Shown: positions 13,596 to 60,251 of the stretch, piece by piece
Numbering within the stretch: position 1 is the first letter of the stretch
How the letters are laid out: each line of letters starts with the position of its first letter
Source of the DNA: Candidatus Colwellbacteria bacterium
GTDB lineage: Bacteria > Patescibacteriota > Minisyncoccia > UBA6257 > Colwellbacteraceae
Direction of reading: 5' to 3'
Length of the DNA stretch: 64,000 nucleotides
NCBI GenBank assembly: GCA_030700125.1
Contig: JAUYKE010000021.1
Span: 2,492 to 66,491, forward strand
Translations under genes and position numbers: made by a program
Notes under the pieces: generated by a model
What the model was told of the DNA's origin: nothing
Databases searched by the model: none
The model's input: only the letters and a program-made list of their open reading frames with translations

Positions 13596-13601
13596 ACTTA
13601 T

Positions 13602-13631: not shown

Positions 13632-13653
13632 ATCGACACTGGGCAGGTGGCGA

Positions 13654-13708: not shown

Positions 13709-13712
13709 AATT

Positions 13713-13794
13713 GCCCCCGTGGCGGAACTGGTAGACGCGCATGGTTTAGGACCATGTCTCGAAAGAGGTAGGGGTTCAAATCCTCTCGGGGGCA
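13713..13794 (+). tRNA. tRNA-Leu (anticodon TAG), long variable arm, no encoded CCA
   Basis: GCCCCCG-TG-GCGGAACTGGTAGACGC-...CATGG-TTTAGGA-CCATG-variable arm-GGGGTTCAAATCCTC-TCGGGGGC-A. Confidence 0.85.
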
Positions 13795-13816
13795 CAAAAA
13801 TTTTATCAAAAAGAAA

Positions 13817-13849
13817 ACCCCACCAGTCCGGGACGGACTGGCGGGGCGC
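13817..13849 (-). terminator. hairpin (CCAGTCCG-GGA-CGGACTGG, extended) followed on the minus strand by T-runs; terminator for the metallophosphoesterase gene
   Basis: Seen directly. Confidence 0.5.
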
Positions 13850-15219
13850 TAGAAGTGACAAGAACTTTCACGGAGCTCACCCGGCCCGTCAAAGAGCATG
13901 AGGCAGGCCGAGGCGAATGTCTTTGTCTTCGCCTCGAATTCAACGAGGGCAAATCCGTAAAGCTGCTCTACCGCGTGAACGAAACCGCCGGCACCGCTCG
14001 TTCCCGGTGAGACAGAAATCACCGTACCGGATCTTTCAAAGAACTGACGGTGATCATGCCCCGAGACAAAAACGAGCGGCAACTCGATTTCCTCCGCGTA
14101 GCGTGCCGCACATTCACCGACCTCGGGATTGTGGACGAGGATAATCAGTGCATCTGTTTTCGCAAACTCCCTCTCGAGCTTGCGGCAGATTTCCGAAAAC
14201 GACATTTCTGCCAGTTTCGGATCCCGGTCGTCAATGCCTCCAAGCGGATCGCTCTCGCCGATGATTCTTATGCCGCGAATTTCGGTAAGAGCGCCGTTCT
14301 CGAGCAGGCGGATGTTGGACGCCTCCTTCACTCTCTGGATAGCCGCTTCGTCCTCGTGATTTCCGGCGACAAGGATGTAGGGTATCCCATTGTCGCTACT
14401 CCGGACGAAGAAATCGGCTTCCATTGCTGTTCCTCGATCGGTGAAGTCACCGGCATCGAGAACAGCATCTACCTTGAAGCTCTTCGCTAACTCGCGCGCC
14501 ATCGCCATCCCCAGCGGGTTATTGTGGAGGTCTGAAACGAGCAGGAACTTGACGGTTGGAGGTGTTGGCACCTCTGCCCCGGTTGTTACCTGTTCGTGGA
14601 GACGCACAAGCCCGGCGATCACTTCGTTGAAGGTAAGCTGCGCCTTATCCCAGTCTTCTTGGATTTCCGTCACTAGCCGGAAAATCCGCGGGGCATCTTG
14701 AATCGGCCCCCTATAGGACGGGTTGCGAAGCGATTGAGGGTTAAAGGTGAGGGCGGCTACAGTTCCGAGGATTGTCACAACGACAAAAGTCGAAACGATA
14801 GAGAGGGCGGCTCCGATAATCCGCCTCCGTGGCGGACCATTAATGGCGACTACTCCGAAGAGGCCGCCAAAGAGCAGAAGCCAGAGCAACTTAGCCCAGA
14901 TTAGCTTCCACGTCAGACCGCCGAAATCCTCCGGTTGGGGCAGAGTCTCGGCGCTATCTCCGACAACAAACACCGCCTCGACGTTCAAGGGGCCATAGTG
15001 GGTTCCCCAGGATAGCTCACCGAGCGGACCGAGACCGAGCTTGAGCTCGCCTCCGGGGATGGCTGGTGCCAGCCGTAATGAGAGCTTGCCCGTTTCAAGA
15101 TGAAACACCGTCGGGCTTACGAGCTCCACGCTGACGAAAACCAAAAAAGCCACCAGCACGATTCGAATGATTGCCGATTTCACATTCACCTCCTTCCTGT
15201 CAAAGGGCTTAATTACCAT
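13849..15219 (-). CDS. membrane-anchored calcineurin-like metallophosphoesterase (GC-rich island)
   Basis: N-terminal TM segments then LLVSDLHNN, GDFTDRG, VAGNHED, GHDHRQ metallophosphoesterase motifs. Confidence 0.75.
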   Translation of the reverse strand: MVIKPFDRKEVNVKSAIIRIVLVAFLVFVSVELVSPTVFHLETGKLSLRLAPAIPGGELKLGLGPLGELSWGTHYGPLNVEAVFVVGDSAETLPQPEDFGGLTWKLIWAKLLWLLLFGGLFGVVAINGPPRRRIIGAALSIVSTFVVVTILGTVAALTFNPQSLRNPSYRGPIQDAPRIFRLVTEIQEDWDKAQLTFNEVIAGLVRLHEQVTTGAEVPTPPTVKFLLVSDLHNNPLGMAMARELAKSFKVDAVLDAGDFTDRGTAMEADFFVRSSDNGIPYILVAGNHEDEAAIQRVKEASNIRLLENGALTEIRGIRIIGESDPLGGIDDRDPKLAEMSFSEICRKLEREFAKTDALIILVHNPEVGECAARYAEEIELPLVFVSGHDHRQFFERSGTVISVSPGTSGAGGFVHAVEQLYGFALVEFEAKTKTFASACLMLFDGPGELRESSCHF

Positions 15220-45665: not shown

Positions 45666-46156
45666 TAGTATTCGTTAATTACCTGATTTAATAGTTTATC
45701 GATTTCTTGATCGGTGACGGCTTCGGTGAGAAGAAGCTTTTCTTTCTGGGATTGAACCCTTTCAGCATCAAGAGCCACCACTCTTTCAGTACTTGTTTTA
45801 TGAACGCCGAAGTAAGCAATCTCATTTAGCTGAAGATTGATATCTTCATTAATGGCATCAGCTTCGGTGAGAAGCGCTTTCTCATCAATTCCCTGAAGAG
45901 GGGGGAGAAAAAAAGACTTTGATAAACCGAAGAGTCCGCCAAGAATCACCACCAGGAAAAGTGCCGCTACCAAAGTAGTCTCAAAAGCGAAGCTAAAACT
46001 TCGAACTACCTGAACCAAAATGCCCGGTTGCGGTTCGCGGTAGTCCGCTCTCTGCGTCAAGATTAAGCGACGCGAATTACGGATATATTCGGCATCCGGT
46101 TCTATTCTCCGTAATCCTTGCAGATTTTTAGTTATTTCTTCGTTAGTTAATCTCAT
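45665..46156 (-). CDS. putative anti-sigma factor (single-pass membrane protein)
   Basis: 163 aa, central TM, position between ECF sigma and DUF5667-like gene, ATGA-type overlaps on both sides. Confidence 0.5.
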   Translation of the reverse strand: MRLTNEEITKNLQGLRRIEPDAEYIRNSRRLILTQRADYREPQPGILVQVVRSFSFAFETTLVAALFLVVILGGLFGLSKSFFLPPLQGIDEKALLTEADAINEDINLQLNEIAYFGVHKTSTERVVALDAERVQSQKEKLLLTEAVTDQEIDKLLNQVINEY

Positions 46157-46691
46157 TTTTTTTGAGAATTCCTTTTAGGTTTTTGAGGGCCCGGTGCTGG
46201 ATGAGCTTTACCGCTCCCTCACTCTTGCCGACTATTAGAGCTGCTTCCTGGTGAGTCAAATCTTCAACGAATCGCAGAATGAGTACCTCCTGTTCAACCT
46301 CTTTTAATTCTCTCATTGCCGTAAGAAGCAATTCCCACTCAATTTTCATATCCAGAAAATCTGACTGTGATTGCTCCTCGGCGGCTAAGTAAGAGGTAAC
46401 CTCTTCGATATTCACTTGCGGATTGGCTTTCCGGTGACTGTCAATAATGGTGTTTCTGGCAATCCGGTAAAGCCAGCTGCCAAAGGGATATCCTTTAGAC
46501 TCGTACTGCTCGATCCGCTCCCAGGCTTTTAAAAAAGTTTGGTGGGTGATGTCCTCAGCTTCCTCACGATGGCTTACTCGAAACAAGACGAAACGATAGA
46601 TCGGGGGCAAATAATGATCATAAAGTAAGCCAAAAGCCTCGGCCTCCCCACCTTTTGCCCGTTCAACTATCCTCGGCTCGTCCTCTATCAT
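46143..46691 (-). CDS. ECF-type RNA polymerase sigma factor (sigma-70 regions 2 and 4)
   Basis: …YRFVLFRVSHREEAEDITHQTFLKAWERIEQY… (region 2), …LTHQEAALIVGKSEGAVKLIQHRALKNL (region 4 HTH). Confidence 0.85.
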   Translation of the reverse strand: MIEDEPRIVERAKGGEAEAFGLLYDHYLPPIYRFVLFRVSHREEAEDITHQTFLKAWERIEQYESKGYPFGSWLYRIARNTIIDSHRKANPQVNIEEVTSYLAAEEQSQSDFLDMKIEWELLLTAMRELKEVEQEVLILRFVEDLTHQEAALIVGKSEGAVKLIQHRALKNLKGILKKNEIN

Positions 46692-47282: not shown

Positions 47283-47347
47283 ATGTGCGGGATTACGGTT
47301 TTTATCTCCGACTTACGTCAGAGAAAAACCGGGAACAATCTTCGTGT

Positions 47348-47399
47348 TCTGCCTGCCCCGCACCGAACTTCGTTCTGGTGCTGGGGTCCATTAAACTAC
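47348..47399 (-). ncRNA. conserved structured element, copy B (UAAUGGA-CCCC(A)GCA-CCAG-GAAC-GAA-GUUC-GG-UGCGGGG-CAGGCAG), ~65 nt upstream of tRNA-Arg(GCG)
   Basis: Closing helix shows compensatory change (GCA/UGC instead of GUAG/CUAC) relative to copies A and C. Confidence 0.45.
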
Positions 47400-47434
47400 G
47401 AGGGCAGGACTCTCTTATTATTCACGTCTTACGA

Positions 47435-47559
47435 CAGCGAATCAATATCTCTTTTCCCAAACCCCCAAATAATAAACCAGGAGCCCAGTAGCTTGCTGTC
47501 GTGCGGAAGCTCTTATAGCAGCTAAGCGAAACCAATATCTCTTCTCCGAAACCTCCGGA
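47435..47559. repeat. pair of ~31-nt direct repeats (GCGAAtCAATATCTCTTtTCCcAAACCcCC / GCGAAaCCAATATCTCTTcTCCgAAACCtCC) 89 bp apart in an ORF-poor 650-bp region
   Basis: Seen directly. Confidence 0.5.
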
Positions 47560-47973
47560 GGCGAGCGGGCATGGTTCGAGCAATAGCGAGAGAGCGAGCC
47601 GAGGACAAGCGCAGTTTCCTCGCTGGGGAAACAAGCGGGTTGAGGGAAGAAATATTGGTGAGCGGTTTCTCATAGACAGCGAGATGCTGGACGACCAAAC
47701 TCTTATCCACATCCCCCAATTGACTTTCAAGCAAGATCAGGGTAAAAAGAGAATTGAACATTAAAAGGGTTCCTCGAAGAAGAATTCTGGAAAGGAAAGG
47801 GGAGTTTCACTGCAATTGCCATCTGGCCGCTATAGCTTATCAGTAATCCATAGTTATCAGATGGCAGTTGCAGAAACCGCCACTCTATCCCTAAGAGCGC
47901 TTTGGCGTCGGGGATTAGAAATGGCGGTTTTTGCGTTTTTATATGGCCACCGCTGGATTACAGGGAGGCGAAG

Positions 47974-48183
47974 ATGTCTATCAGTCAGAGACTCCGCGAA
48001 GACCAGCTCGGGCCTACTCAAGAAGTTCTTGACTGGCGTTTCCAGGTGCTCCTGGAAGCCCGCTATCCGAGGGAGGATGCGTGGGAGATTGCGAGTGAAC
48101 TTTCTGTCGACCTCCATGAGGCAGCGGACCTAGTAGTAAAGAAAGGGTGTCCGCCAGAGATGGCGGCAGCTATCCTTCTATGA
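47974..48183 (+). CDS. GC-rich small hypothetical protein (69 aa)
   Basis: GGGAGG SD 5 nt upstream of ATG; compositionally distinct. Confidence 0.45.
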   Translation: MSISQRLREDQLGPTQEVLDWRFQVLLEARYPREDAWEIASELSVDLHEAADLVVKKGCPPEMAAAILL

Positions 48184-48196
48184 GAAGGGGGCGGTC

Positions 48197-48433
48197 ATGT
48201 CGAGCCAGGTAAGGCCAACCATCGGAGAGGTGGTGGACGACTGTCGGATGGTGCTAACTTGCCCGGAACTTGATGAGGCTTCGATGAACGGAGTCACATC
48301 TTCCGGGCTGGATAGAAGAGACATGGTTTCCATCATTTGCAGTCACACCCATTCTCCTGATGCAGGATGCGGGTGTGCCCAGAAGATCGATCCGAACACT
48401 CTCACTTCCTATGCGGAGGAGGTAGGGCTATAG
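48197..48433 (+). CDS. GC-rich small Cys/His-rich hypothetical protein (78 aa; C17,C22,C48,H49,H51,H53,C58,C60)
   Basis: AAGGGGGCGG SD before ATG; followed by hairpin terminator ~48458-48487. Confidence 0.45.
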   Translation: MSSQVRPTIGEVVDDCRMVLTCPELDEASMNGVTSSGLDRRDMVSIICSHTHSPDAGCGCAQKIDPNTLTSYAEEVGL

Positions 48434-48593
48434 AGTAAACCGTCAACAACTAAGAAAAGGGGACAACCGAGGTATGTCCCCTTTCGAACATTTATGAGAT
48501 CTGGCGCTTGTCTGTTTGAAAATATCCCTGCCTACCGGCAGGCAGGCGAACTGAACTGGCTGGGCCCCGCGGGCGGAGTAAATGACAAAAAAA

Positions 48594-48884
48594 TCAATCA
48601 GTGATAAATAAAGAATGGAAAATGATAAAAAGAATCACACACAACCCTAAAAGAATAGATAGGAGAACTGAAATAGAGCCATCTTGATATTTCCTTTTAG
48701 CAATTATTCCGATGATAAAGGCAATGATGCTTGCGGAGAACACAATAGGCACGGTTACATCCCACCAATGATCATCAAAATTTAGTACTTTCAAAATTTG
48801 AGCAAGAAAGATTGAAGCGATAATTGCGATCAGGAAAAAGATGTGTAGTCCAACTGACCATTTACCTAATTTAGTTCTTGGCAT
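48594..48884 (-). CDS. small AT-rich membrane protein (3 TM)
   Basis: 96 aa hydrophobic. Confidence 0.45.
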   Translation of the reverse strand: MPRTKLGKWSVGLHIFFLIAIIASIFLAQILKVLNFDDHWWDVTVPIVFSASIIAFIIGIIAKRKYQDGSISVLLSILLGLCVILFIIFHSLFITD

Positions 48885-48969
48885 AAATTACCCTTATTAT
48901 ATGTGTTCCACTTCAAAGTTTTTCTTCCTAGAGCGTTCCGAGCAACGCTCGGAGTAGCTTGGCGGCAAA

Positions 48970-49278
48970 TTACTTTAACTCAACTATCAAAACATGGGTC
49001 TCGGTTTCTCCAATATTTTCACCTATATGAATTTGGGCCTCAGACCAAATAATGTCACCGGCTTTGAATTCGCGCGGTATAACTTTTCCATTGTCTAAAT
49101 GTATGTTCCGCTTGAAAGCACCTAAAGCATAGAGCACAAAAGCAGGATGTTTATGTCTATTTGTCTTTTCGCCAGGCTTATCGCGATAATCTAATACCCG
49201 TACCCGTTCATTTTCGTATATAACCTTATACTTATCAGGATCAGTTGTTACTGCATCTTGAACTGGTTGTGTATCCAT
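48970..49278 (-). CDS. cupin-domain protein
   Basis: 102 aa; …HKHPAFVLYALGAFKRNIHLDNGKVIPREFKAGDIIW… cupin-2-like beta-barrel pattern. Confidence 0.55.
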   Translation of the reverse strand: MDTQPVQDAVTTDPDKYKVIYENERVRVLDYRDKPGEKTNRHKHPAFVLYALGAFKRNIHLDNGKVIPREFKAGDIIWSEAQIHIGENIGETETHVLIVELK

Positions 49279-49456
49279 ATTTTTTATTTCCTTTTAGTTT
49301 AATTTTATATAATCGACCTTTTCGTTATACCAAATCTTCCATTGGAACGCCTAACGCTTTGGCGACTAATCTTTAAATGAATTTTTATCGAGGCAACTCG
49401 GTCGCTGACTCGCCTCGGCTGAGTCGGTCCCTCGATAAAAAATGTTGTCTGGCTAA

Positions 49457-49480
49457 ATCAAAATTCTTAAGAATTTTGAT
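49457..49480. promoter_or_regulatory. 24-bp perfect palindrome ATCAAAATTCTTAAGAATTTTGAT in the ATPase upstream region; candidate operator
   Basis: Seen directly. Confidence 0.5.
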
Positions 49481-49494
49481 CGCCCGATCGCTTA

Positions 49495-49610
49495 TAGCGA
49501 TTTAGGGCGGGACATTCGGGTTAAGTAGCCGGAGTATCCAATCAGTATAAGGGTTTTCGAGAGGTTATTCCAGAAAGCAATTTGAGGTGTCTCGGTCAAG
49601 ATTAAGCGAG
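49495..49610 (+). repeat. ~110-bp direct repeat, copy 1 (…GGGCGGGACATTCGGGTTAAGTAGCCGGAGTATCCAATCAGTATAAGGGTTTTCGAG…ATTTGAGGTGTCTCGGTCAAG…), leader of the P-type ATPase gene
   Basis: ~80-90 % identical to 53375-53485; contains a possible -10 (TATAAG). Confidence 0.6.
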
Positions 49611-52319
49611 ATCGCGGTTTCTGGTAAACTTAGCCGAATGGGAAATAATTGGTCAATGAAGCCAGTTGTAAAAATTATGGAGCAATTTGCTTCCAGCGAA
49701 CGCGGATTAGATGCCCAAGAAGCAAAGCGACGTTTACAAGAATACGGACCCAATAAATTACCAGCAGGGAAAACAAGCAGCTTAGCTCTTATATTTTTAA
49801 GACAGTTTCAAAGCCCTTTAATTTACATCCTCTTTATAGCAAGCTTGATTGTTTTTGTGATAGGAGAAGTAACTGACGGTTCTATTATTCTCTTCGTTCT
49901 TTTATTTAATGCGGTTGTGGGCACTTTTCAGGAGGGTAAAGCCCAGAATACGCTTTTAGCGTTAAAGAAACTTATCAGGGCCGACTCGGCAGTTTTACGA
50001 GGCGGAAAAGAAGTGTTATTACCGGACGAGGAAGTGGTACCAGGAGACATCCTTGTTCTTCAGGCCGGCGAGATGATCGCGGCTGACGCTAGAATAATTA
50101 CAGCTAAAAATCTTAAGGTAGACGAAGCGATATTAACTGGTGAGTCAGAACCAGTTCATAAAGTTTCCGAAATACTGGCAAGAAAAAAGAAATCGGCGCT
50201 CAATCCGAGTAATATAGTTTTTCAGGGCACTTATGTTGTCGCCGGCAATGGCAAGGCCGTAGTGGTAGCCACGGGCACCGAGACTGCGATTGGGAAAGTT
50301 GCTAAAAAAATTACGACCATTGACACCGAAATCCCTCTTAAGGTTAACATCCGCCATCTTTCTCGGCTGATTATCCTCGCGGTTGCAGGTATCGTTACTT
50401 CATTATTTTTCCTCGGTATTGCTTTGGGGAAATCGGCGAGGGAGATGTTCACTACGGCTGTATCCCTATCTGTGTCAATCATTCCTGAAGGACTGCCGAT
50501 TGTTATAACCCTGGTGTTGGCGACAGGAGTTTGGCGGATGAGCAAGAGAAATGCTTTGGTAAAGCGGCTCCAGGCAGTGGAGGCATTAGGGCAGGCGCGC
50601 ATTATCGCCATAGATAAAACCGGGACAATCACCAAAAACGAGATGGTGATTCAAAGAGTCTATATAGAGGACAAGCTTTTCGAAGTTACCGGTACTGGTT
50701 ACGACCCTAAAGGAGAAGTAAGGATTGAAGGTAACATTGTTAATCCACCTAATCATCCCGAGTTGCTCCTAGCCGGGAAAATAGCGGCTTTTTGCGCTAA
50801 CAGCCGGGTTGTAAATGATGAAAAGACTAATCAGTGGCGGATAGTTGGCGATCCGACAGAGGCAGCCATGCTTGTCTTCGCTGAAAAAATGGGATTTCAC
50901 AAAGATGATTTAGAGCGGGAGTCGCCGGAGACTGACGAAATCCCCTTTGATTATAAGCTTAAATATCACGCTACAGTCCATAAAGTCGGCAGCAAGAGAT
51001 TCCTTGCTGTAGTTGGCACACCAGAAGTCATCTTAGATCTTTCGTCAAGGATATGGCAAAAAGGCGAAGCTCATTCTCTATTTAAAGAGGAGAAAGAGGA
51101 GCTTGAAAAAACATTTATTAGGCTCTCCGAAGAAGGATTTCGGGTTTTAGCTTTTGCGATAAGTCACGATGTACCGGAGAATATCACTCCGGAGAAGATC
51201 CAGAAGCTCACTTTTGCGGGATTCTTCGGTATGAAAGATGCCCTTAGGCCGGAAGTTAAGGAGGCAGTGGAGAAAGCCAAGTCAGCCGGCATCAGGGTGA
51301 TAATGATTACCGGGGATCATAAAATTACTGCTCAGGCTATTGGGAAAGAAGCCGGCATTTACAGGGATGGCAGTGAGGTTTTGATTGGCGAGGAGGTTGA
51401 TAAGCTTTCTGACGCTGAACTTGCGTTTCGTCTTCCAAAAATCTCGATCTTTGCTCGAGTAACTCCCGATCATAAATTAAGGATTATTAATGCCTATAGA
51501 GCCCGGGGTGAGATTATTGCCATGACGGGAGACGGGGTCAATGATGCGCCGTCGTTAGTAGCCGCCGATCTTGGCATAGCGATGGGTAAAATCGGCACCG
51601 AAGTAGCCAAAGAGGCATCCGACATTGTTCTTTTGGACGATAATTTCACCAGCATTGTCTCGGCCATAGAAGAGGGGAGAAATATTTATAAGACCATTAA
51701 AAAGGTTGTCCTCTATTTGTTTTCAACGAGCGTCGGTGAAGTTCTTACGATTTCCGGAGCTCTCTTTCTCGGCTACCCCTTACCGCTGTTGGCTGCTCAA
51801 ATTATTTGGTTAAACTTGGTAACTGACGGCTTTTTGGATGTCGCTCTAGCGATGGAACCCAGGGAGAAAGGACTGCTTCAAGGTAATTTTGAACGACCCA
51901 AAAAGTATCTGATAGATCGGTTGATGGGAAAGCGGATAATTATAATGGCCATTTCGATGGCGATAGGAACCTTGTTTCTTTTCAAGGGATATTTTGAGGC
52001 TGATATTACTAAGGCCTGGACAATATCGCTTACAACTCTGGCAGTTTTTCAATGGTTTAATGCTTGGAACTGTCGCTCTGAAGAAAAATCTATTTTCCAG
52101 ACGAATCCGTTTTCAAATAGGTTCTTAGTGGGAGCAACGGTCATTGTAGTTCTCCTTCAATTGTTAGCAGTCTATAACCCTTTAATGCAGAAAATTTTGC
52201 ACACCACCTCACTTGAATTACGCGAATGGTTGCTGATTATTGCCGTAGCGGCCTCTATTATCCTTGTAGAGGAGATAAGAAAAAATTTCTATCGCAGGAG
52301 GTTGGCTTTATCCCGTTAG
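49587..52319 (+). CDS. P-type cation-transporting ATPase (type IIA/Ca2+- or Mg2+-ATPase-like); true start probably at an internal Met (~49638/49656)
   Basis: Cation_ATPase_N-like N-term (LDAQEAKRRLQEYGPNKL), TGES, DKTGTIT phosphorylation site, MTGDGVNDAPSL hinge, 10 TM. Confidence 0.9.
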   Translation: MSRSRLSEIAVSGKLSRMGNNWSMKPVVKIMEQFASSERGLDAQEAKRRLQEYGPNKLPAGKTSSLALIFLRQFQSPLIYILFIASLIVFVIGEVTDGSIILFVLLFNAVVGTFQEGKAQNTLLALKKLIRADSAVLRGGKEVLLPDEEVVPGDILVLQAGEMIAADARIITAKNLKVDEAILTGESEPVHKVSEILARKKKSALNPSNIVFQGTYVVAGNGKAVVVATGTETAIGKVAKKITTIDTEIPLKVNIRHLSRLIILAVAGIVTSLFFLGIALGKSAREMFTTAVSLSVSIIPEGLPIVITLVLATGVWRMSKRNALVKRLQAVEALGQARIIAIDKTGTITKNEMVIQRVYIEDKLFEVTGTGYDPKGEVRIEGNIVNPPNHPELLLAGKIAAFCANSRVVNDEKTNQWRIVGDPTEAAMLVFAEKMGFHKDDLERESPETDEIPFDYKLKYHATVHKVGSKRFLAVVGTPEVILDLSSRIWQKGEAHSLFKEEKEELEKTFIRLSEEGFRVLAFAISHDVPENITPEKIQKLTFAGFFGMKDALRPEVKEAVEKAKSAGIRVIMITGDHKITAQAIGKEAGIYRDGSEVLIGEEVDKLSDAELAFRLPKISIFARVTPDHKLRIINAYRARGEIIAMTGDGVNDAPSLVAADLGIAMGKIGTEVAKEASDIVLLDDNFTSIVSAIEEGRNIYKTIKKVVLYLFSTSVGEVLTISGALFLGYPLPLLAAQIIWLNLVTDGFLDVALAMEPREKGLLQGNFERPKKYLIDRLMGKRIIIMAISMAIGTLFLFKGYFEADITKAWTISLTTLAVFQWFNAWNCRSEEKSIFQTNPFSNRFLVGATVIVVLLQLLAVYNPLMQKILHTTSLELREWLLIIAVAASIILVEEIRKNFYRRRLALSR

Positions 52320-52530
52320 GTCGCTTGATAGTTCGATAGGCTCACCGCAAGTAAAAAATGTTGTCTGCGGAGGAGTAGTGGACGATGTTAGAACCTATTG
52401 GATGACCACTGCCGAGAGGTTTTTCATTCCAAGCTTAACGTTAGAGGTCGCTCGAATCAAATAATGATTTCCTACCCTTCTTTTCGTGAGCCAGAATTTT
52501 TACCCTATTATTGATTATAAAGTGAAAAAT

Positions 52531-53349
52531 TTATGTAATAAAAATTGATAACCACTCTGGATGATGGGCTTCAATAAGCGCCAGAAAGAGGATTAAATCA
52601 AGCGTCAAGTGAATCGTAATTATATAAAGGAGAGATTTGGTTTTCATAAAGATGTAACCTTGAGTAAGAGCAAAGATAAATATTAAAATAAAACCCCAGC
52701 CGGTGAAGCCAAGTTCATATAAAAATGAAGTGAACAAGACGCTTTGAATTAAGTTTGCCCAGCCAAATTTTATATGCCGGATGAGTATTCCAAGAACAGT
52801 ATTTACGAAGAAAAGTTCATCCCAAATACCCAGCGCATTAGTTCCGATAAAGAGCCTGATGATATTACTTAAGCCCGGTTCTACATTCCAATTCAGATAT
52901 GCCCCCGTATTTAGAAGGTAGAAAGGGAGTAAAAAGTAGGAAAGAATAGCTGTTATAACAATATAGAGAATTTCACTCCGAAACCAACGTCGCCCATGAT
53001 GAAACGTGTAAGGAATTAATGCCTTATCTTTATAGAATTTGCGGGCGATAGTTAACGGAATTATGAGAACTAAGACAAGGGCTAATCCCATCTCGAACAT
53101 GTGTCGATAGCTGATATCAGTGGTGATGGCAGTAATACCAAGAAGAGCTATAGCCACATAAACAAGTAAGAGATGCTTGGCGAATTGCCGCTCGGCAAAA
53201 ACTAAAGATAGTAATCCAGCGCCATATACTAGCCAGCCATAGGGCTTAACTTGCAGGGCAATAAGAATTATGCCGGTAGCCGAAAGGAGGATAAGCGAAA
53301 AGATATTAAAAATTTTAGTTCGCATTGAAGATACAAATAAGCATATCAT
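52531..53349 (-). CDS. CPBP-family (CAAX/Abi-like) intramembrane metalloprotease-like protein
   Basis: Polytopic; WDELFF (EExxxR-like), HLTLDL (HxxxD) motifs; AT-rich. Confidence 0.5.
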   Translation of the reverse strand: MICLFVSSMRTKIFNIFSLILLSATGIILIALQVKPYGWLVYGAGLLSLVFAERQFAKHLLLVYVAIALLGITAITTDISYRHMFEMGLALVLVLIIPLTIARKFYKDKALIPYTFHHGRRWFRSEILYIVITAILSYFLLPFYLLNTGAYLNWNVEPGLSNIIRLFIGTNALGIWDELFFVNTVLGILIRHIKFGWANLIQSVLFTSFLYELGFTGWGFILIFIFALTQGYIFMKTKSLLYIITIHLTLDLILFLALIEAHHPEWLSIFIT

Positions 53350-53374
53350 TTAAGGTATGCCCATTCTGCATTTG

Positions 53375-53485
53375 CGGGACGTTCGGGTTAAGTAGCCAGA
53401 GTATTCAATCAGTATAAGGGTTTCTCGGGGCTCGGGCGAGGAGCTATTTTGAGGCACGTGGGTCAGGGTTAAATGGGACAAATGG
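53375..53485 (+). repeat. ~110-bp direct repeat, copy 2, upstream of helicase gene; followed by AAATGGGACA tandem and GGGACAC…GTGTCCC hairpin
   Basis: Seen directly. Confidence 0.6.
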
Positions 53486-53629
53486 GACACGAAAACAGGG
53501 TTTTTGGGAGTGTCCCATTTTGCAACCTGAGTAGTTGCCAGGCGGTTGACTAATGGCATTAAATATGCCATTCTTTGGTGTCCTTTAATAGCGTATTCTC
53601 TCCACCGAAAGCGAAAGGAGGTGGTCGAC

Positions 53630-56017
53630 ATGATCCCAATGCTACACCAGCAGGACTGCCTGGACCGCCTCCAGGCGGTTCGTAAGCAAGGCCATGAACG
53701 TGCCCTCATCGTGGTTGCAACTGGCCTTGGTAAGACTGTCATTTCGGCTCTCGACATAAAGCAGTTTCGGAAGCTGAAGCGTGGTGGTCGAGTGCTCTAC
53801 CTCTGTCACCAGAAGGATATCCTCCGGCAGGCTCGGAGGACCTTCGAGCTCGTGCTCGGAGAGGAGGCGACCTACGGGTATTTCCACGGCATGGAAAAGC
53901 ATTTCCACGACGTGGATTGTCTCTTTGCCTCGTTCCAAAGCATGCGCGAGTGGCGTGAGGCTTTCCTTCCGGATGAGTTCGACTACATCGTGATTGATGA
54001 GAGTCATCATGGTCCGGCGCCGACTTACCGCCCCACGATCGAGTACTTTGAACCCAAGTTCTTGCTTGGAATCACCGCTACTCCGGATCGGACCGATCTC
54101 CAGGATATTCGGGAGATCTACGGACGGGAGGTCTACTCGCTTCCCATCGAGGAGGCTCTAGCCAAGGGGCTTCTCACAAGGGTGGACTATCGACTCATCA
54201 CAGATGAACTCGTCGATCTCAAGGTACTCGAGACGCCAGTTGGTAAGCTCAGCATAACCGAGCTCAACAAGAGGCTCTTCGTACCGAAGCGAGACGAGGA
54301 AATCGCACAGATCATCCAGAAGCGCATCAAGAAGATCAAGGACCCTCGGGTTATGATTTTCTGTCCTTCAGTGGACTACTGTATTCGACTCTCGGCGCTC
54401 TTGCCAGAAGCGATACCCATCCATTACCGGCTTTCCGGGAAAGACCAGGAAATTCGGCTTGAGTTATTCCGGCAGGGCCGGGTCAGGTCAGTCCTCACGG
54501 TCGATAAGTTCAACGAAGGGATTGATATCCCAGAAGCGAACGTAATTGTCTTCCTCCGCTCGACTGCTTCTCGGATGCTCTTCTTCCAGCAGCTTGGGAG
54601 GGGACTCCGGAAAGTTGAGGGGAAGAAGAAGGTTCTCGTGCTCGACTTCGTGGGTAACTGCGAGCGGCTCGAGCTGGTCCACTATCTGTGGTCTGAGGTG
54701 ATGACGTATCACTCTCATAAGATCTCGGGTAATGGACCGGCTCCAATCGAGATTGATGTCGGAAGCCTCAAATTCTCCGAGGTGACCAAGAACGTTCTGG
54801 ACGTCATCATGGCGGTTCGGGGCGGTTACACTAAGGAGATTTTGATCAAGCAGCTCAGGCAACTTGCCGAGCGGATCGGACGAATCCCTAGAAGAGTCGA
54901 CGTAGACAAGGCATCTCATGAAGGTCGATGCGCACACAGCGTGACTTTCACAAGGGTCTTTGGATCATTCCCTAAAGCTCTGCTGGCAGCGGGGTTTGAG
55001 CCGAACTATATTCGCTCTCTCCTCCCAAGTAAAGAGGAAATGATTCGTCTCCTCCGGGAACTCGGAGATAAACTGAAAAGAGTTCCCAGTCGGGAAGACA
55101 TTCGGCAGGCAAACAAGGAAGGGTTCTGCCCAAGCTGCTGGTACTACGAGCAACAGTTTGGATCACTTCCAGAAGCTCTCACACGTGCCGGCTTTAATCC
55201 TCGGAGATCAATCCGGCACACTCCGGAAGAGCTCATCGAAAGGCTCCAGTGGCTCACCAGAGAGCTAGGTCATCAGCCTTCGCATAGAGAGTTAAGGAAA
55301 GTAAGTAAGGAGATCAATGGTTTCCCGACCATTCTTCCTTTCCTGCGTGCTTTTGGCAATCTTGATGAGGCATTCGAAGCAGCAGGCCTCAGTAGAAGGC
55401 GAGGTATCGAGAAATATAAATCCTCGTACACGGAAGATGAGATTGTCTCTTACCTTCAGAGTCTTGCCAAGCAACTTGGTAAGACACCTAGCGCAGCTGA
55501 CGTAGGCCAAGCAAGTGCCGGCGGCAAGGGGCCAGGATCCTCCGCTATCGCCCGACGCTTTGGCAGTTTCAATGCAGCGCTTGAAGCAGCTGGATTACTA
55601 CCATTAAAGAGAAACTACACCGACGAAGAGCTTATTGATCTGCTCCGGCAGTGTGCTGAGGAGATCGGTAAAGTTCCCGGAAAGCAAGACCTCCTACACC
55701 ACGGCTGGCCAAGCCCTAACACATACCGACAACACTTCGGCTCGTATGCCATCGCGCTTGAGAGAGCTGGGCTTACGCCGACTGCTCGAAGCATCGCAAG
55801 AAGCATCTATAGCTTCGAGGATATAGTCAGGGCTGTCCGAAAGGTAGCGGAAAACCTAGGCCGAGTTCCTACTCTAGGTGAGTACGAATCACTCCGTGCC
55901 GTTGGCGAACCTACTCGCTACACGATTAGTAGGCGACTAGGCGATTGGAAGTCTGTACTAAAAGCCGCTGATCTTACAGGGGAAAACGAATCCCTGAACA
56001 CCCGGTTGGAGGGATAA
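53630..56017 (+). CDS. SF2 (ResIII/DEAH-like) helicase fused to six C-terminal homing-endonuclease-associated (HEAR-type) repeats; GC-rich
   Basis: Walker A ATGLGKT, Walker B DESHH, motif III GITATP, helicase-C motifs; C-terminal six ~50-aa repeats ending …FGS(F/W/L)xxALExAGL; AAGGAGG SD before ATG at 53630. Confidence 0.8.
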   Translation: MIPMLHQQDCLDRLQAVRKQGHERALIVVATGLGKTVISALDIKQFRKLKRGGRVLYLCHQKDILRQARRTFELVLGEEATYGYFHGMEKHFHDVDCLFASFQSMREWREAFLPDEFDYIVIDESHHGPAPTYRPTIEYFEPKFLLGITATPDRTDLQDIREIYGREVYSLPIEEALAKGLLTRVDYRLITDELVDLKVLETPVGKLSITELNKRLFVPKRDEEIAQIIQKRIKKIKDPRVMIFCPSVDYCIRLSALLPEAIPIHYRLSGKDQEIRLELFRQGRVRSVLTVDKFNEGIDIPEANVIVFLRSTASRMLFFQQLGRGLRKVEGKKKVLVLDFVGNCERLELVHYLWSEVMTYHSHKISGNGPAPIEIDVGSLKFSEVTKNVLDVIMAVRGGYTKEILIKQLRQLAERIGRIPRRVDVDKASHEGRCAHSVTFTRVFGSFPKALLAAGFEPNYIRSLLPSKEEMIRLLRELGDKLKRVPSREDIRQANKEGFCPSCWYYEQQFGSLPEALTRAGFNPRRSIRHTPEELIERLQWLTRELGHQPSHRELRKVSKEINGFPTILPFLRAFGNLDEAFEAAGLSRRRGIEKYKSSYTEDEIVSYLQSLAKQLGKTPSAADVGQASAGGKGPGSSAIARRFGSFNAALEAAGLLPLKRNYTDEELIDLLRQCAEEIGKVPGKQDLLHHGWPSPNTYRQHFGSYAIALERAGLTPTARSIARSIYSFEDIVRAVRKVAENLGRVPTLGEYESLRAVGEPTRYTISRRLGDWKSVLKAADLTGENESLNTRLEG

Positions 56018-56056
56018 CCAACCCCGGTCTGGCATCGACGACTAGATCGGGCTACT

Positions 56057-56098
56057 GGCCCACCGAGGATTAATTCCAAAGTGGGCCTTTTCGTTTTT
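56057..56098 (+). terminator. rho-independent terminator after helicase gene (GGCCCAC…GTGGGCC + TTTTCGTTTTT)
   Basis: Seen directly. Confidence 0.7.
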
Positions 56099-56305
56099 AT
56101 AATACTTTAGATACAACCGCTAAATTAATTTGGTTCTAACGTCCCACTCGGGGTATTGAAAGAAGTCTCTGAAATTGAGGTTAATTCTCTGGTGGAGGAG
56201 GTGGGAATCTCACTACTCACTTGTTTCACTCGTTGCGCTTTCAGAACCCTCGGTTCTAAATAATCTCCAACACGGAGGGGGCCCGGTGGCTTCCCCTCCG
56301 ACCCA

Positions 56306-56325
56306 CCCCTCGTTCAAATCCCACC
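56306..56325 (+). pseudogene. inverted partial copy of the tRNA-Ser 3' region (CCCCTCGTTCAAATCCCACC vs CCCCCTCGTGGGTTCGAATCCCACC)
   Basis: Seen directly ~45 bp from the 3' end of tRNA-Ser. Confidence 0.35.
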
Positions 56326-56369
56326 AAGTACAAAATAAATACATCGCAAGGATGTACTTATTTTGTACG

Positions 56370-56455
56370 CGGAAGGGGTGGGATTCGAACCCACGAGGGG
56401 GACAAGCCCCCACGGGTTAGCAACCCGTCGCTTTGGACCGCTCAGCCACCCTTCC
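56370..56455 (-). tRNA. tRNA-Ser (anticodon GCT), long variable arm
   Basis: GGAAGGG-TG-GCTGAGCGGTCCAAAGC-G-ACGGG-TTGCTAA-CCCGT-variable arm-GTGGGTTCGAATCCCAC-CCCTTCC-G. Confidence 0.85.
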
Positions 56456-58733: not shown

Positions 58734-60251
58734 ATGACGCATATTTCGGAATGGGCAAAAATTGGCAGTAAAATTACCGCACATCGTGAGCAGAAGGGTA
58801 TGACCCAAGCTGGGCTTGCCCGGCTTCTAAAAACGAGTCAAAGCGCCGTTGCCCGAATGGAGGCAGGCGAACAAAATTTCAGCACCGGGACGCTTTTAAA
58901 AATCGGCAAGATTCTTGATAAAGAGTTAATTACTCTTTCCGATGAAACAGTTAATTTTAAAGTTGAAGGCGGCCACAAGCTAAAAGGGGAGGTAAAAGTA
59001 AATACCTCAAAAAACGCCGCTGTCGCGCTGCTTTGCGCTTCGCTCCTCAACAAAAATAAAACCGTCTTAAAGCGAATGCCTCGAATTGAAGAAGTCTATC
59101 GAGTGATTGAAGTGCTCGTTAGCTTGGGTGTTTCGATTAGATGGCTTGGCAATGATGTTGAAATTATTCCGCCGAAGAAAATCAATCCGCGGCATATCAA
59201 TGTTGAAGCGGCAATGAAAACCCGGAGCGTGCTTCTTCTCTTGGGGCCGCTAATTCATTTATTGCCGGCCTTTAGAATTCCTCAACCGGGGGGGTGTAAG
59301 CTCGGCGGGAGAACTGTCCGACCCCATCTTCTTGCCCTGGAGAAACTGGGAATAAAGATTGATACCAAAGCGAATTATTACGAAGTCTTGCACAAGAGAC
59401 TTCGACCGGCGGAGATTGTGCTCTACGAATCGGGCGACACAACTACGGAAAATGTTTTAATGGCGGCCGCCAAGATAAAGGGTAAAACTGTAATCAAGTT
59501 TGCTTCGGCTAACTATATGGTCCAGGATCTTTGCGACTTCCTTACCCAATTGGGGGTAAAGATAGACGGGGTCGGGACAACTACCCTTACGGTCTATGGC
59601 ACTCCGGAAATAGACAAGCCGATTACTTACTACCCGAGCGAAGATCCGATTGAGGCGATGCTTTTCCTCTCAATCGCCGCCACCACCAACTCTTCAATAA
59701 CCATAAAGGGCTGTCCGATTGATTTTCTCGAGCTTGAACTCTTGAAGTTGGAAAAAATGGGCTTCAAATTCAAAATCTTGAGGCGCTATAAATCCGCCAA
59801 CAATTTCACTAACTTGGTAGATATCCGGACTCTCCCTTCGAAGCTCCATGCCCTGGAAGAGAAAATTTACGCCCGGCCTTTTCCGGGACTAAATATCGAT
59901 AATCTCCCTTTCTTCGTGCCGATTGCCACCCAAGCGGAAGGTCAAACTCTGATTCACGACTGGGTGTACGAAAATAGGGCCATCTATTATATGGAGCTAA
60001 ATAAGCTTGGGGCTGACATTATTCTGGCTGATCCGCACCGCATCTATGTTAATGGACCGACCAGACTAACCGGAGCTGAAATAATCTGCCCGCCGGCTCT
60101 CCGGGCAGCGGCTATTATTTTAACCGCCATGCTCGCCGCCTCCGGCACCTCGGTTTTGCGGAATGTTTATTCAATTAATCGCGGCTACGAGGATCTGGCT
60201 AACCGATTAGGTAAACTGGGAGCGCGGATTAAAACATTACGTAGTTTTTAA
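58734..60251 (+). CDS. murA: UDP-N-acetylglucosamine 1-carboxyvinyltransferase (MurA) with an N-terminal XRE-type helix-turn-helix domain fusion
   Basis: N-terminal ~65 aa GMTQAGLARLLKTSQSAVARMEAG HTH; then full MurA (KLKGEVKVNTSKNAAVALLCASLL…, active-site loop PQPGGCKLGGRTVRPH, C-term …RGYEDLANRLGKLGARI). Confidence 0.8.
   Translation: MTHISEWAKIGSKITAHREQKGMTQAGLARLLKTSQSAVARMEAGEQNFSTGTLLKIGKILDKELITLSDETVNFKVEGGHKLKGEVKVNTSKNAAVALLCASLLNKNKTVLKRMPRIEEVYRVIEVLVSLGVSIRWLGNDVEIIPPKKINPRHINVEAAMKTRSVLLLLGPLIHLLPAFRIPQPGGCKLGGRTVRPHLLALEKLGIKIDTKANYYEVLHKRLRPAEIVLYESGDTTTENVLMAAAKIKGKTVIKFASANYMVQDLCDFLTQLGVKIDGVGTTTLTVYGTPEIDKPITYYPSEDPIEAMLFLSIAATTNSSITIKGCPIDFLELELLKLEKMGFKFKILRRYKSANNFTNLVDIRTLPSKLHALEEKIYARPFPGLNIDNLPFFVPIATQAEGQTLIHDWVYENRAIYYMELNKLGADIILADPHRIYVNGPTRLTGAEIICPPALRAAAIILTAMLAASGTSVLRNVYSINRGYEDLANRLGKLGARIKTLRSF

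What the first reader, a model, noticed from the sequence alone, without database searches (positions are those of the whole stretch)
53630..56017. SF2 helicase fused to six homing-endonuclease-associated repeats, in a GC-rich island next to tRNA-Ser
The 795-aa product has a complete ResIII/DEAH-type helicase core (ATGLGKT, DESHH, GITATP, helicase-C motifs). It is followed by six tandem ~50-aa repeats ending in FGS(F/W)xxALExAGL, the signature I associate with repeats that normally accompany HNH/GIY-YIG homing endonucleases in phages. No nuclease domain is present. The gene is markedly more GC-rich than the chromosome background and has a strong SD. It ends 350 bp from tRNA-Ser(GCT), and an inverted partial copy of the tRNA-Ser 3' end lies ~45 bp from the tRNA (56306-56325). 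This arrangement is typical of integrase-mediated insertion scars, although no integrase is visible. The domain combination (translocase plus sequence-reading repeats without a nuclease) looks like an undescribed defence, anti-defence or mobile-element maintenance protein.
Basis: partly seen in the sequence, partly recalled or inferred. Interest (0 to 1): 0.7.

Follow-up and report, generated by a model that had tools for sequence, protein, structure and literature searches.

The report
Nuclease-free DNA motor with HEAR repeats
This gene encodes an ATP-driven DNA motor that has no cutting domain and carries six small DNA-binding repeats; it belongs to a large, unstudied family in Patescibacteria whose genes often sit beside or are fused to sigma-70 transcription factors and lie just after tRNA genes.

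Summary
ORF 53630-56017 (795 aa) has an intact SF2 DExH helicase core and six Pfam PF18780 'homing endonuclease associated repeats' (HEAR, E 3e-80). It has no nuclease domain. tRNA-Ser(GCT) lies 351 bp downstream.

The fusion is not a one-off. All 120 best database homologs, nearly all from Patescibacteria MAGs, share the architecture. The motor is closest to the restriction enzyme SauUSI (E 1e-55) but lacks its nuclease and its SRA domain.

Across the family the same motor carries alternative C-terminal modules: HEAR, INT_rpt, DUF4379 zinc ribbons, or sigma-70 regions 2-4. A modelled HEAR unit is a basic four-helix bundle resembling TetR-type HTH domains.

Two genomic contexts recur:
- A sigma-70 gene is fused or within 3 kb in 6 of 18 HEAR-type loci, and at least 12 distinct fusions exist.
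- A tRNA gene lies within 600 bp in 9 of 38 loci, always with the helicase on its 3' side. In two loci att-like repeats bracket the helicase alone.

In this window the gene lies in a 9-kb segment that differs from relatives. The 'scar' belongs to a separate ~175-nt element. GC is only +1.2 SD.

Best reading: a DNA-anchored, non-cutting translocase, possibly sigma/RNAP-linked. Defence or mobile cargo remains a serious rival.

The parts
53472..53519 (.). Three copies of the 9-mer AATGGGACA, two in tandem and one inverted, 110-160 bp upstream of the start codon. This is a candidate operator in the region shared with the divergent Rce1-like gene.
   Evidence: 4 copies in the window against 0.31 expected, and 3 of them lie here. 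Sequence read. No function was tested.
53614..53622 (+). Shine-Dalgarno sequence AAGGAGGTG, 7 nt before the ATG.
   Evidence: Read directly.
53630..56017 (+). CDS of 795 aa: SF2 DExH translocase plus six HEAR repeats. NCBI annotates 792 aa from the second ATG.
   Evidence: P0001 is 100% identical.
53642..54091 (+). RecA-like lobe 1 (ResIII, residues 5-154) with Walker A GLGKT and motif II DESHH.
   Evidence: K35, T36, D123, E124, H126 and H127 are invariant or nearly invariant in 52 homologs.
54311..54610 (+). RecA-like lobe 2 (Helicase_C, residues 228-327) with motif VI QQLGRGLR.
54662..54826 (+). Helical connector, residues ~345-399. It occupies the position of the start of the SauUSI coupler domain.
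   Evidence: The phmmer match to 7clg runs from query 2-427 to SauUSI 222-645. The coupler is residues 618-805 in SauUSI (PMC7913695). Model helices are listed.
54827..55003 (+). HEAR repeat 1 (residues 400-458).
55025..55201 (+). HEAR repeat 2 (residues 466-524).
55217..55393 (+). HEAR repeat 3 (residues 530-588).
55427..55603 (+). HEAR repeat 4 (residues 600-658).
55616..55780 (+). HEAR repeat 5 (residues 663-717).
55808..55978 (+). HEAR repeat 6 (residues 727-783), the most divergent; it has LGD in place of FGS.
56057..56098 (+). Terminator-like hairpin GGCCCAC...GTGGGCC followed by TTTTCGTTTTT.
   Evidence: Read. The scan tool did not list it because the loop exceeds 8 nt.
56194..56368 (+). 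A separate ~175-nt conserved non-coding element between the helicase and tRNA-Ser. Its left end (56194-56209) is a direct copy of a tRNA-Ser 3' end. It has a GC hairpin core, an inverted T-arm-like copy (56306-56325) and an AT-rich hairpin (56328-56368). It is not part of the helicase unit.
   Evidence: (z -4.66).
56369..56455 (-). tRNA-Ser(GCT). Its 3' end faces the helicase gene.
47283..56140 (.). Variable segment between two conserved syntenic blocks (tRNA-Gly/tRNA-Arg on one side, tRNA-Ser/IF2/RbfA on the other). It holds two small ORFs, a P-type ATPase, an Rce1-like membrane protein and the helicase.

Best explanation
The gene encodes a non-cutting, ATP-driven double-strand-DNA translocase. 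Its motor is of the SauUSI/RadD/HsdR/XPB class of SF2 DExH enzymes. Where SauUSI has a nuclease at the N-terminus and an SRA reader at the C-terminus, this protein has nothing at the N-terminus. At the C-terminus it has six basic, helix-turn-helix-like HEAR modules joined by flexible linkers.

It is one member of a large Patescibacteria (CPR) family. In that family the same motor carries interchangeable C-terminal address modules: HEAR arrays, INT_rpt arrays, DUF4379 zinc-ribbon arrays, or sigma-70 regions 2-4.

Proposed mechanism:
- The HEAR array holds the protein on duplex DNA, probably at preferred sites (inferred).
- The motor then pumps DNA and remodels or strips protein-DNA complexes rather than cleaving DNA (inferred from homology).
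- The HEAR branch is fused to sigma-70-family factors or encoded beside them in about a third of loci. The complex most likely acted on is therefore RNA polymerase/sigma at promoters (inferred from gene context only).

In this genome the gene is a solo copy with no sigma-70 partner nearby. It lies as accessory cargo in a variable, tRNA-flanked segment.
For: Motor:
- All helicase motifs are intact and conserved across homologs.
- The best solved relative is SauUSI, at E 1e-55 by sequence and E 3e-22 by Foldseek. Next come RadD, LlaBIII, HsdR, XPB and FANCM, all duplex-DNA translocases.
- SauUSI translocation was shown by triplex displacement (PMC7913695).

No nuclease:
- The PADLOC mREase_IV profile is matched only at positions 219-569 of 945.
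- Pfam and NCBIfam find no nuclease.

HEAR as a DNA binder:
- The AlphaFold models have pLDDT 86.6 and 88.3. Each repeat forms four helices, and the linkers have low confidence.
- The array has pI 9.6 and net charge +14. The mean is +3 per repeat across 76 repeats.
- Elsewhere HEAR arrays are joined to LexA DNA-binding domains, RHH domains, small terminase, and LAGLIDADG and HNH nucleases.

Swappable modules:
- Among 34 CPR helicases, 15 carry INT_rpt, 12 HEAR, 6 DUF4379 and 2 an N-terminal sigma-70.
- In at least 8 proteins, sigma-70 r2/r3/r4 sit in the same C-terminal slot.

Sigma link:
- At least 12 distinct fusions exist, in two orientations.
- A sigma-70 gene is adjacent in L001, L005, L156, L157 and L158.
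- In total 6 of 18 HEAR-type loci have sigma-70 fused or within 3 kb. Chance expectation is roughly 2-6%.
- The window protein is 47-49% identical to sigma-linked members.
Against: - There is no sigma-70-family gene next to the gene in this window. The only sigma nearby is an ECF type at 46143-46691, which belongs to the conserved syntenic block.
- Most helicase-linked sigmas are divergent: 22-47% identity to RpoD over r2-r4. Only L001 has a clear primary rpoD nearby, at 61%.
- Two sigma-fusion loci lie next to a TrwB-like coupling protein. A third locus (L156), where sigma-70 is adjacent rather than fused, lies near TrbC/TrbL genes. The sigma link may therefore reflect mobile-element biology rather than host transcription.
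- The tRNA-3' position, the att-like repeats around the helicase alone in L009 and L012, and the different content of this locus in relatives all point to horizontally moved accessory DNA.
- No biochemistry exists for any member of the family.
Confidence: 0.45

Rival explanations
1. The protein is a stand-alone conflict gene, either defence or mobile-element cargo. It would be a SauUSI-derived motor that recognises foreign or mobile DNA through arrays borrowed from homing endonucleases and integrases. It would block that DNA by translocation or protein displacement, or it would recruit a nuclease encoded elsewhere.
For: - The closest characterised relatives are restriction enzymes: SauUSI and PADLOC mREase_IV at E 9e-56, plus type I and ISP enzymes.
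- 9 of 38 CPR loci have a tRNA within 600 bp (binomial P about 1.5e-4). In all 9 the helicase is on the tRNA 3' side (P 0.002).
- In L009 (18/18 nt) and L012 (16/17 nt), direct repeats of the tRNA 3' end bracket the helicase gene alone.
- This locus is variable among relatives. One relative has a prophage-like element with a serine recombinase at the same tRNA-Ser.
- Genomes carry several paralogs, some in tandem, with 2-8 repeats per array.
- The array types are typical of mobile-element enzymes.
Against: - There is no nuclease or other effector domain.
- No neighbouring gene family other than sigma-70 recurs across 38 loci.
- Neighbours in the window have no PADLOC hits.
- No full-length relative is found in 2.9 million viral contigs or in 50,697 phage records; only distant helicase cores match.
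- Many copies lie among housekeeping genes such as dnaG-rpoD, dnaE, priA and parAB.
Confidence: 0.3
2. The protein is a DNA repair or replication-restart helicase analogous to RadD. The HEAR array would serve as a general DNA clamp at forks or breaks.
For: - RadD is the second-best structural and sequence relative: E 5e-23, Foldseek E 1e-17, and the top NCBIfam hit.
- Some loci lie beside AddA-like UvrD/PD-(D/E)XK and RmuC genes, beside dnaE and RNase HII, beside dnaG or beside priA.
Against: - The RadD model scores 102 bits against a curated cutoff of 720.
- These neighbours do not recur across loci.
- Variable copy number, swappable arrays and island-like positions are unusual for a core repair factor.
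Confidence: 0.1
3. The protein is an accessory or mobility factor of a single-gene integrative cassette. It would use HEAR or INT_rpt arrays to bind the same DNA sites as homing endonucleases or integrases. It would help or hinder their reactions at tRNA att sites, for example by loading or removing recombinases, or by protecting the site.
For: - In L009 and L012 the segment between the tRNA and its 3'-end direct repeat (2.5-3.1 kb) holds only the helicase gene and no integrase.
- The arrays are shared with integrase- and homing-endonuclease-type proteins.
- tRNA 3' ends in these genomes carry further small att-flanked inserts, in the window and in L016.
Against: - There is no strand-cleaving or strand-joining domain.
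- In the window the direct repeat does not enclose the helicase.
- Only 2 of 9 tRNA-adjacent loci show bracketing repeats.
Confidence: 0.08

Closest known systems
SauUSI (Staphylococcus aureus type IV ATP-dependent restriction enzyme, PDB 7clg)
   Same: - It is the best sequence and structure match. Query residues 2-427 align to SauUSI 222-645 at E 1e-55, with Foldseek E 3e-22.
- Both have an SF2 DExH duplex-DNA translocase motor.
- Both follow the general plan of a motor followed by a DNA-reading part.
   Different: - The N-terminal PLD nuclease (residues 1-191) and its linker are absent.
- The C-terminal SRA/DUF3427 5mC reader is replaced by six HEAR modules.
- SauUSI dimerises through its nuclease domains, so that dimer interface is missing here.
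HEAR/HNH_repeat proteins (Pfam PF18780): repeat arrays of phage and bacterial homing-endonuclease-type proteins
   Same: - Six clear repeats score 264.8 bits against a cutoff of 26.
- The consensus is the same: Y-T-x-E-x-L-I...L-G-R-x-P...F-G-S-W-x-x-A-L-x-x-A-G-L.
   Different: - The partner here is a helicase rather than an HNH or LAGLIDADG nuclease.
- Among 66 HEAR-rich representatives, 5 had HNH, 6 LAGLIDADG, 8 a LexA DNA-binding domain and 5 a helicase. Several are arrays alone.
- A Bacillus phage encodes a 172-aa protein of three repeats with no nuclease.
RadD (YejH) DNA repair helicase
   Same: It is the second-best relative of the motor. It is also an SF2 protein without a nuclease.
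   Different: - It scores far below the family cutoff, at 102 against 720 bits.
- The C-terminal part is different.
RNA-polymerase-coupled translocases: RapA (bacterial Swi2/Snf2) and XPB in TFIIH. This is a functional analogy only.
   Same: - All are SF2 duplex-DNA translocases that act on transcription complexes.
- XPB chains appear among the structural hits at E 1e-13 to 1e-15.
- Members of this family are fused to sigma-70 factors or encoded beside them.
   Different: - There is no membership. RapA scores 22.6 against 576 bits and XPB 44 against 610 bits. Pfam SWI2_SNF2 scores 25.5, just under its 26.7 cutoff.
- No interaction with RNA polymerase has been shown for any member.

Membership tests
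SauUSI-type type IV restriction enzyme | N-terminal PLD-family nuclease domain (H-x-K-x4-E motif, residues 1-191 in SauUSI) | tested here: not met
   The protein starts at the helicase. The alignment begins at SauUSI residue 222. The PADLOC profile is matched only from position 219. There is no PLD hit in Pfam. Domain limits are taken from PMC7913695.
SauUSI-type type IV restriction enzyme | SF2 DExH helicase-like ATPase | tested here: met
   E 1e-55 to 7clg. Motifs are intact.
SauUSI-type type IV restriction enzyme | C-terminal SRA-like (DUF3427) reader of modified cytosine | tested here: not met
   The C-terminal 400 residues are six PF18780 repeats. There is no DUF3427 hit. The PADLOC match ends at profile position 569-644 of about 950.
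HEAR / HNH_repeat (PF18780) repeat proteins | Matches to the PF18780 profile above the gathering score | tested here: met
   264.8 bits against a cutoff of 26, in six stretches.
Homing endonuclease | HNH, GIY-YIG, LAGLIDADG or other nuclease domain | tested here: not met
   None is found in Pfam at E up to 0.1, in NCBIfam or in PHROGs.
RadD (NF053632) | Score above the curated equivalog cutoff | tested here: not met
   102.1 bits against 720.
RapA / Swi2-Snf2 ATPases | Match to the SNF2-type profiles above cutoff | tested here: not met
   PF18766 scores 25.5 against 26.7. RapA NF003426 scores 22.6 against 576.
Unnamed Patescibacteria helicase-plus-repeat-array family | N-terminal nuclease-free SauUSI-like motor followed by an array of HEAR, INT_rpt or DUF4379 units; 40% identity or more to many members | tested here: met
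   120 of 120 best homologs carry ResIII + Helicase_C + PF18780, at 39-55% identity. The census of 34 loci is.
Integrase-mediated genomic island at a tRNA gene | Integrase or recombinase gene inside the island | tested here: not met
   No recombinase is found among ORFs of 47.3-56.1 kb. A relative does have a serine recombinase at the same tRNA.
Integrase-mediated genomic island at a tRNA gene | Direct repeat of the tRNA 3' end at the far border, enclosing the cargo | tested here: not met
   The only direct copy (56194-56209) lies between the tRNA and the helicase. No copy is found beyond the helicase. The feature is met for homologs in L009 and L012.
Integrase-mediated genomic island at a tRNA gene | Segment absent or different in relatives, with conserved flanks | tested here: met
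   The flanks are collinear with L149 and L147, while the content between tRNA-Arg and tRNA-Ser is different. The relatives are distant, with IF2 62-77% identical.
Integrase-mediated genomic island at a tRNA gene | Deviant base composition | tested here: inconclusive
   The helicase is +1.2 SD in GC and GC3. The neighbouring genes of the same segment are at or below the mean, at 0.444 and 0.379.

The most novel reading that the evidence does not exclude
The HEAR-helicase family is an ATP-dependent partner of sigma-70-family factors in Patescibacteria. The array would bind DNA near promoters. The SF2 motor would pump DNA into, or strip, the RNA polymerase-sigma complex. This would be a bacterial counterpart of XPB in TFIIH, or of the ATPase activators of sigma-54, but acting on the sigma-70 family. 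The fusion proteins would then be single-chain versions of this machine.
Probability: 0.12. Interest if true: 0.9.

Novelty: new variant of a known kind. Interest (0 to 1): 0.6.

Why it matters
Patescibacteria make up a large share of bacterial diversity and have very small genomes. Even so, many of them keep one or more copies of this 600-900-residue protein, sometimes in tandem.

The family shows how a restriction-type DNA motor can be stripped of its nuclease and re-addressed with exchangeable DNA-reading modules, including sigma-70 domains.

If the sigma link reflects a physical partnership, it would be a kind of ATP-driven help for sigma-70-type transcription that has not been described in bacteria.

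If the family is instead conflict-related, it would be a defence or mobile-element protein that works without cutting DNA. In that case the single-gene, integrase-less inserts at tRNA 3' ends would need an explanation.

Either way, the HEAR repeat would gain a testable role as a modular DNA binder.

Tried and rejected
1. HEAR and INT_rpt as one superfamily. hhalign of 76 HEAR repeats against 12 INT_rpt repeats gave probability 1%. I make no claim of homology.
2. A solved HEAR structure by sequence. Nothing better than E 0.04 was found, and those hits were enolases.
3. The intergenic element as a known RNA. Rfam gave nothing at gathering or E-value thresholds.
4. A phage origin. There is no full-length relative in viral contigs or phage records, only distant helicase cores at 37% identity or less.
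5. A multi-gene defence system. Clustering of neighbours over 38 loci gave no recurrent partner except sigma-70. PADLOC found nothing for the window neighbours.
6. A link between the ~175-nt element and the helicase. The three other copies, in L150-L152, have no helicase or HEAR ORF nearby.
7. TrwB-like coupling protein as a general neighbour. It is found only in L154 and L155.
8. The window as an 'empty site' for the L009 island. There are no shared flanking genes.
9. The apparent Sigma70_r3 hits in 12 of 66 HEAR-rich proteins. These fall inside the HEAR repeats themselves, so they are weak cross-similarity and not fused sigma domains.
Full report
**1. Checking the observation**

The ORF list gives 53546-56017 on the plus strand. 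The in-frame ATG at 53630 is preceded by AAAGGAGGTG at a good distance and gives 795 aa. NCBI's record for the same protein, from a Candidatus Colwellbacteria MAG, starts three codons later at 792 aa.

- Pfam finds ResIII (5-154, E 5e-34), Helicase_C (228-327, E 4e-12) and six stretches of PF18780 'Homing endonuclease associated repeat'. The whole-protein score is E 3e-80, at 264.8 bits against a cutoff of 26.
- The repeats lie at residues 400-458, 466-524, 530-588, 600-658, 663-717 and 727-783, so the period is about 64 residues.
- The motifs GLGKT, DESHH, TATP and QQLGRGLR are present. They fall in invariant or nearly invariant columns of a 52-sequence alignment.
- No nuclease family is detected in Pfam, NCBIfam, PADLOC or PHROGs.
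- tRNA-Ser(GCT) lies 351 bp downstream on the minus strand.
- The inverted T-arm-like copy at 56312-56325 is real. It matches at 13 of 14 positions, and the 14-mer is expected 0.03 times in the window.
- The GC claim is overstated. The gene is only +1.2 SD above the window's genes in both GC and GC3, and genes at 11.6-15.2 kb are richer.

**2. The motor**

The best solved relative is the type IV restriction enzyme SauUSI (7clg). Query residues 2-427 align with SauUSI 222-645 at E 1e-55. It is also the top Foldseek hit of the full-length model (E 3e-22), followed by RadD, LlaBIII, an HsdR fragment, XPB and FANCM.

SauUSI consists of a PLD nuclease (1-191), a linker, the SF2 ATPase, a helical coupler (618-805) and an SRA-type reader (806-953). 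It translocates on duplex DNA (PMC7913695).

The window protein corresponds only to the ATPase and the first part of the coupler. The PADLOC mREase_IV profiles are matched from position 219 to about 569-644 of about 950. It is therefore a SauUSI-class motor without the nuclease and without the 5mC reader. It fails the membership tests for SauUSI, RadD (102 against 720 bits) and RapA.

**3. The repeats**

AlphaFold models were made of the whole protein (pLDDT 86.6, pTM 0.58) and of residues 396-795 (pLDDT 88.3). In both, each HEAR unit forms four helices of about 15, 9, 8 and 7 residues. Confidence is low in the linkers, so the picture is beads on a string.

- The array is basic, with pI 9.6 and net charge +14. 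The mean is +3 per repeat over 76 repeats from relatives.
- No solved structure matches by sequence.
- In a library of 1.84 billion representatives, 4,959 proteins match the array at E 1e-3 or better, and 309 at E 1e-30 or better.
- Among 66 of the best of these, HEAR arrays occur alone or joined to other domains. Counts are LexA DNA-binding domains (8), LAGLIDADG (6), HNH (5), helicases (5), RHH domains (5) and small terminase (3).
- A Bacillus phage encodes a 172-aa protein of three repeats and nothing else.

Together this supports HEAR as a modular DNA-binding unit. It remains an inference.

**4. The family**

The fusion is common.

- All 120 best hits in the 5.8-billion-protein collection have ResIII, Helicase_C and PF18780. 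They are 530-1026 aa long and 39-55% identical. They carry only generic helicase names, and nearly all come from Patescibacteria MAGs.
- Repeat number varies from 2 to 8.
- A scan of species-representative genomes showed that the same nuclease-free motor carries other C-terminal arrays in these bacteria. Of 34 helicases, 15 have INT_rpt (PF14882), 12 HEAR, 6 DUF4379 treble-clef zinc ribbons and 2 an N-terminal sigma-70.
- Genomes can hold several copies, sometimes in tandem, as in L005, L037 and L156.
- Non-CPR hits in the same scan are ordinary SauUSI-like enzymes, with the helicase at residues about 200-600.
- I found no paper on this family.

**5. The sigma-70 link**

At least 12 distinct proteins join this motor to sigma-70 domains.

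- In P0046, P0246 and the L026 protein, sigma regions 1.2-4 come first and the helicase follows. P0046 then has HEAR repeats (Pfam finds 4).
- In P0267, P0272, P0275, P0276, P0277, P0279, P0281 and P0285, the helicase comes first. Sigma regions 2, 3 and 4 (or region 4 alone) then occupy residues about 470-730, which is exactly the slot of the repeat arrays.
- Separate sigma-70 genes lie next to HEAR-helicase genes in L001 (dnaG-rpoD, a 115-aa ORF and tRNA-Asn, then the helicase), L005, L156, L157 and L158.
- The last three loci were chosen only for contig length, and all three showed the pairing.

Overall, 6 of 18 distinct HEAR-type loci have sigma-70 fused or within 3 kb. The rough chance expectation is 2-6% (one search gives binomial tails for a comparable count).

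There are caveats.

- The linked sigmas are mostly divergent, at 22-47% identity to RpoD over regions 2-4. Only L001 has a clear primary rpoD, at 61%.
- Two fusion loci lie next to homologous TrwB-like coupling proteins, and L156 lies near TrbC/TrbL.
- The window itself has no such sigma partner.

**6. The tRNA link and the 'island'**

Relatives were identified through IF2 (77% and 62% identity). They keep tRNA-Ser(GCT), IF2, RbfA, tRNA-Cys and tRNA-Leu in the same order as the window. L149 also keeps ClpB, RNase Y, HU, an ECF sigma, tRNA-Gly and tRNA-Arg on the other side.

Between tRNA-Arg and tRNA-Ser the content differs.

- The window has 9.1 kb here: two small ORFs, a P-type ATPase, an Rce1-like membrane protein and the helicase.
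- L149 has 3.9 kb of other genes.
- L147 has a serine recombinase, terminase, ParB-methylase, a LexA-like repressor and a ThsB-TIR gene abutting the same tRNA-Ser.

The helicase therefore lies in a variable segment at an insertion hot spot. However, that segment has no integrase and mixed base composition.

Across the family, 9 of 38 loci have a tRNA within 600 bp (P about 1.5e-4). In all nine the helicase is on the tRNA's 3' side (P 0.002).

- In L009 a perfect 18-nt copy of the tRNA-Leu 3' end lies 216 bp beyond the helicase stop.
- In L012 a 16/17 copy of the tRNA-Glu 3' end lies 260 bp beyond the stop.
- In each case the repeats enclose only the helicase gene.

This is the classical signature of site-specific integration, yet with no recombinase inside. 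It remains unexplained.

**7. The 'scar' in the window**

- Its left end is a direct copy of a tRNA-Ser 3' end (15 of 20 positions against the window's own tRNA, read). The copy is closer to the L149 version of the tRNA than to the window's own.
- It contains an invariant GC hairpin core and the inverted T-arm-like piece. It ends in an AT-rich hairpin whose arms covary.
- It folds well, at -67.6 kcal/mol with z -4.66.
- L147 lacks it; there the same flanking motif abuts the tRNA directly.
- Its 34-nt core occurs in three more metagenome contigs. One is next to another tRNA whose 3' end it duplicates, one is next to a tmRNA gene, and one has no tRNA called. None has a helicase nearby.

So there is an insertion footprint at tRNA-Ser, but it does not delimit the helicase.

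**8. Weighing the explanations**

The molecular picture is well supported: an active duplex-DNA translocase, no nuclease, and a multi-module DNA-binding tail. I put it at about 0.8.

The biological role is open.

- The sigma-70 fusions in both orientations, and the frequent adjacency in the HEAR branch, are the most specific context signal. I therefore put first a role on RNA polymerase/sigma complexes.
- The restriction-enzyme ancestry, the tRNA-3' positions with att-like repeats, the variable locus, the paralogy and the mobile-element-type arrays argue for a conflict or mobile-cargo role. I keep this as a close rival.
- The two readings need not exclude each other, because mobile elements often carry their own sigma factors.
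- A RadD-like repair role and an integration-accessory role are less likely but not excluded.

**9. Novelty**

The parts are known, and the architecture is visible in public annotations. The following appear undescribed in the searchable literature:
- the family itself;
- its exchangeable address modules, including sigma-70 domains;
- its two recurrent genomic contexts.

I rate it a new variant of a known kind, namely SF2 translocases with DNA-reading appendages.

Noticed in passing
window 56194-56368; also L149 9661-9862, L150 7424-7600, L151 50-228 (minus strand), L152 2715-2895 (minus strand): A conserved ~175-nt non-coding element. Its left end copies the 3' end of the neighbouring tRNA. 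It has an invariant ~50-nt GC-hairpin core (CGGAGGGGaCCCGGTGGCTTCCCCTCCGACCCACCCCTCGTTCGAATCC) and a covarying terminal hairpin. It has no Rfam family. It sits next to tRNA-Ser, another tRNA, or a tmRNA. It may be an integrase-less mini insertion or an unknown tRNA-like RNA.
   Followed up: partly
L009 9551-12762 and L012 9642-12259: The helicase-HEAR gene is the only gene between a tRNA (Leu or Glu) and a 17-18-nt direct repeat of that tRNA's 3' end. These are single-gene, integrase-less att-flanked inserts of 2.5-3.1 kb.
   Followed up: partly
P0046, P0246, P0267, P0272, P0275-P0277, P0279, P0281, P0283, P0285; L026 8984-11374: Sigma-70/SF2-helicase fusion proteins occur in two orientations in Patescibacteria. 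In one orientation, sigma regions 2-4 replace the repeat array.
   Followed up: partly
window 53472-53519: Three copies of AATGGGACA (two tandem, one inverted) lie in the divergent promoter region between the Rce1-like gene and the helicase. There are 4 copies in the window against 0.31 expected.
   Followed up: no
L147 1-9716: In a relative, the same tRNA-Ser(GCT) is followed by a large serine recombinase, a GpA-type terminase, a ParB-N6/N4 methylase, a LexA-like repressor and a ThsB-TIR gene. This is a prophage-like element at the same site.
   Followed up: no
L016 12400-13720 (minus strand): Nested small duplications lie at the 3' end of tRNA-Asn. One is a perfect 20-nt copy of the tRNA end 172 nt downstream. 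The other is a second copy of the tRNA's downstream flank about 350 nt away. This suggests repeated small insertions at CPR tRNA ends.
   Followed up: no
L156 2715-5513 (minus strand): A 932-aa protein combines a DEAD/Helicase_C helicase with RNase III and a dsRNA-binding domain, a Dicer-like layout. It is encoded directly upstream of the sigma-70 gene and a helicase-HEAR paralog.
   Followed up: no
L154 251-3184 and L155 103-1836: Homologous TrwB-like coupling proteins (E 1e-87) lie next to two sigma-helicase fusion genes of opposite domain order. L155 also has an rve-type integrase.
   Followed up: partly
P0356 and other HEAR-rich proteins (alignment A6): The first helices of HEAR repeats give weak matches to sigma-70 region 3 (Pfam Sigma70_r3 in 12 of 66 proteins). 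The matches fall inside the repeats, so they reflect similarity and not fusion.
   Followed up: partly
window 11625-15219: A block of minus-strand genes has GC 0.50-0.60 and GC3 up to 0.75. This is the most compositionally deviant part of the window, far more so than the helicase.
   Followed up: no
window 58734-60251: The 505-aa ORF after tRNA-Leu begins with an XRE-type helix-turn-helix-like sequence (…QKGMTQAGLARLLKTSQSAVARMEAGEQN…). This is joined to what looks like a MurA-type enolpyruvyl transferase. I read it from the translation only.
   Followed up: no
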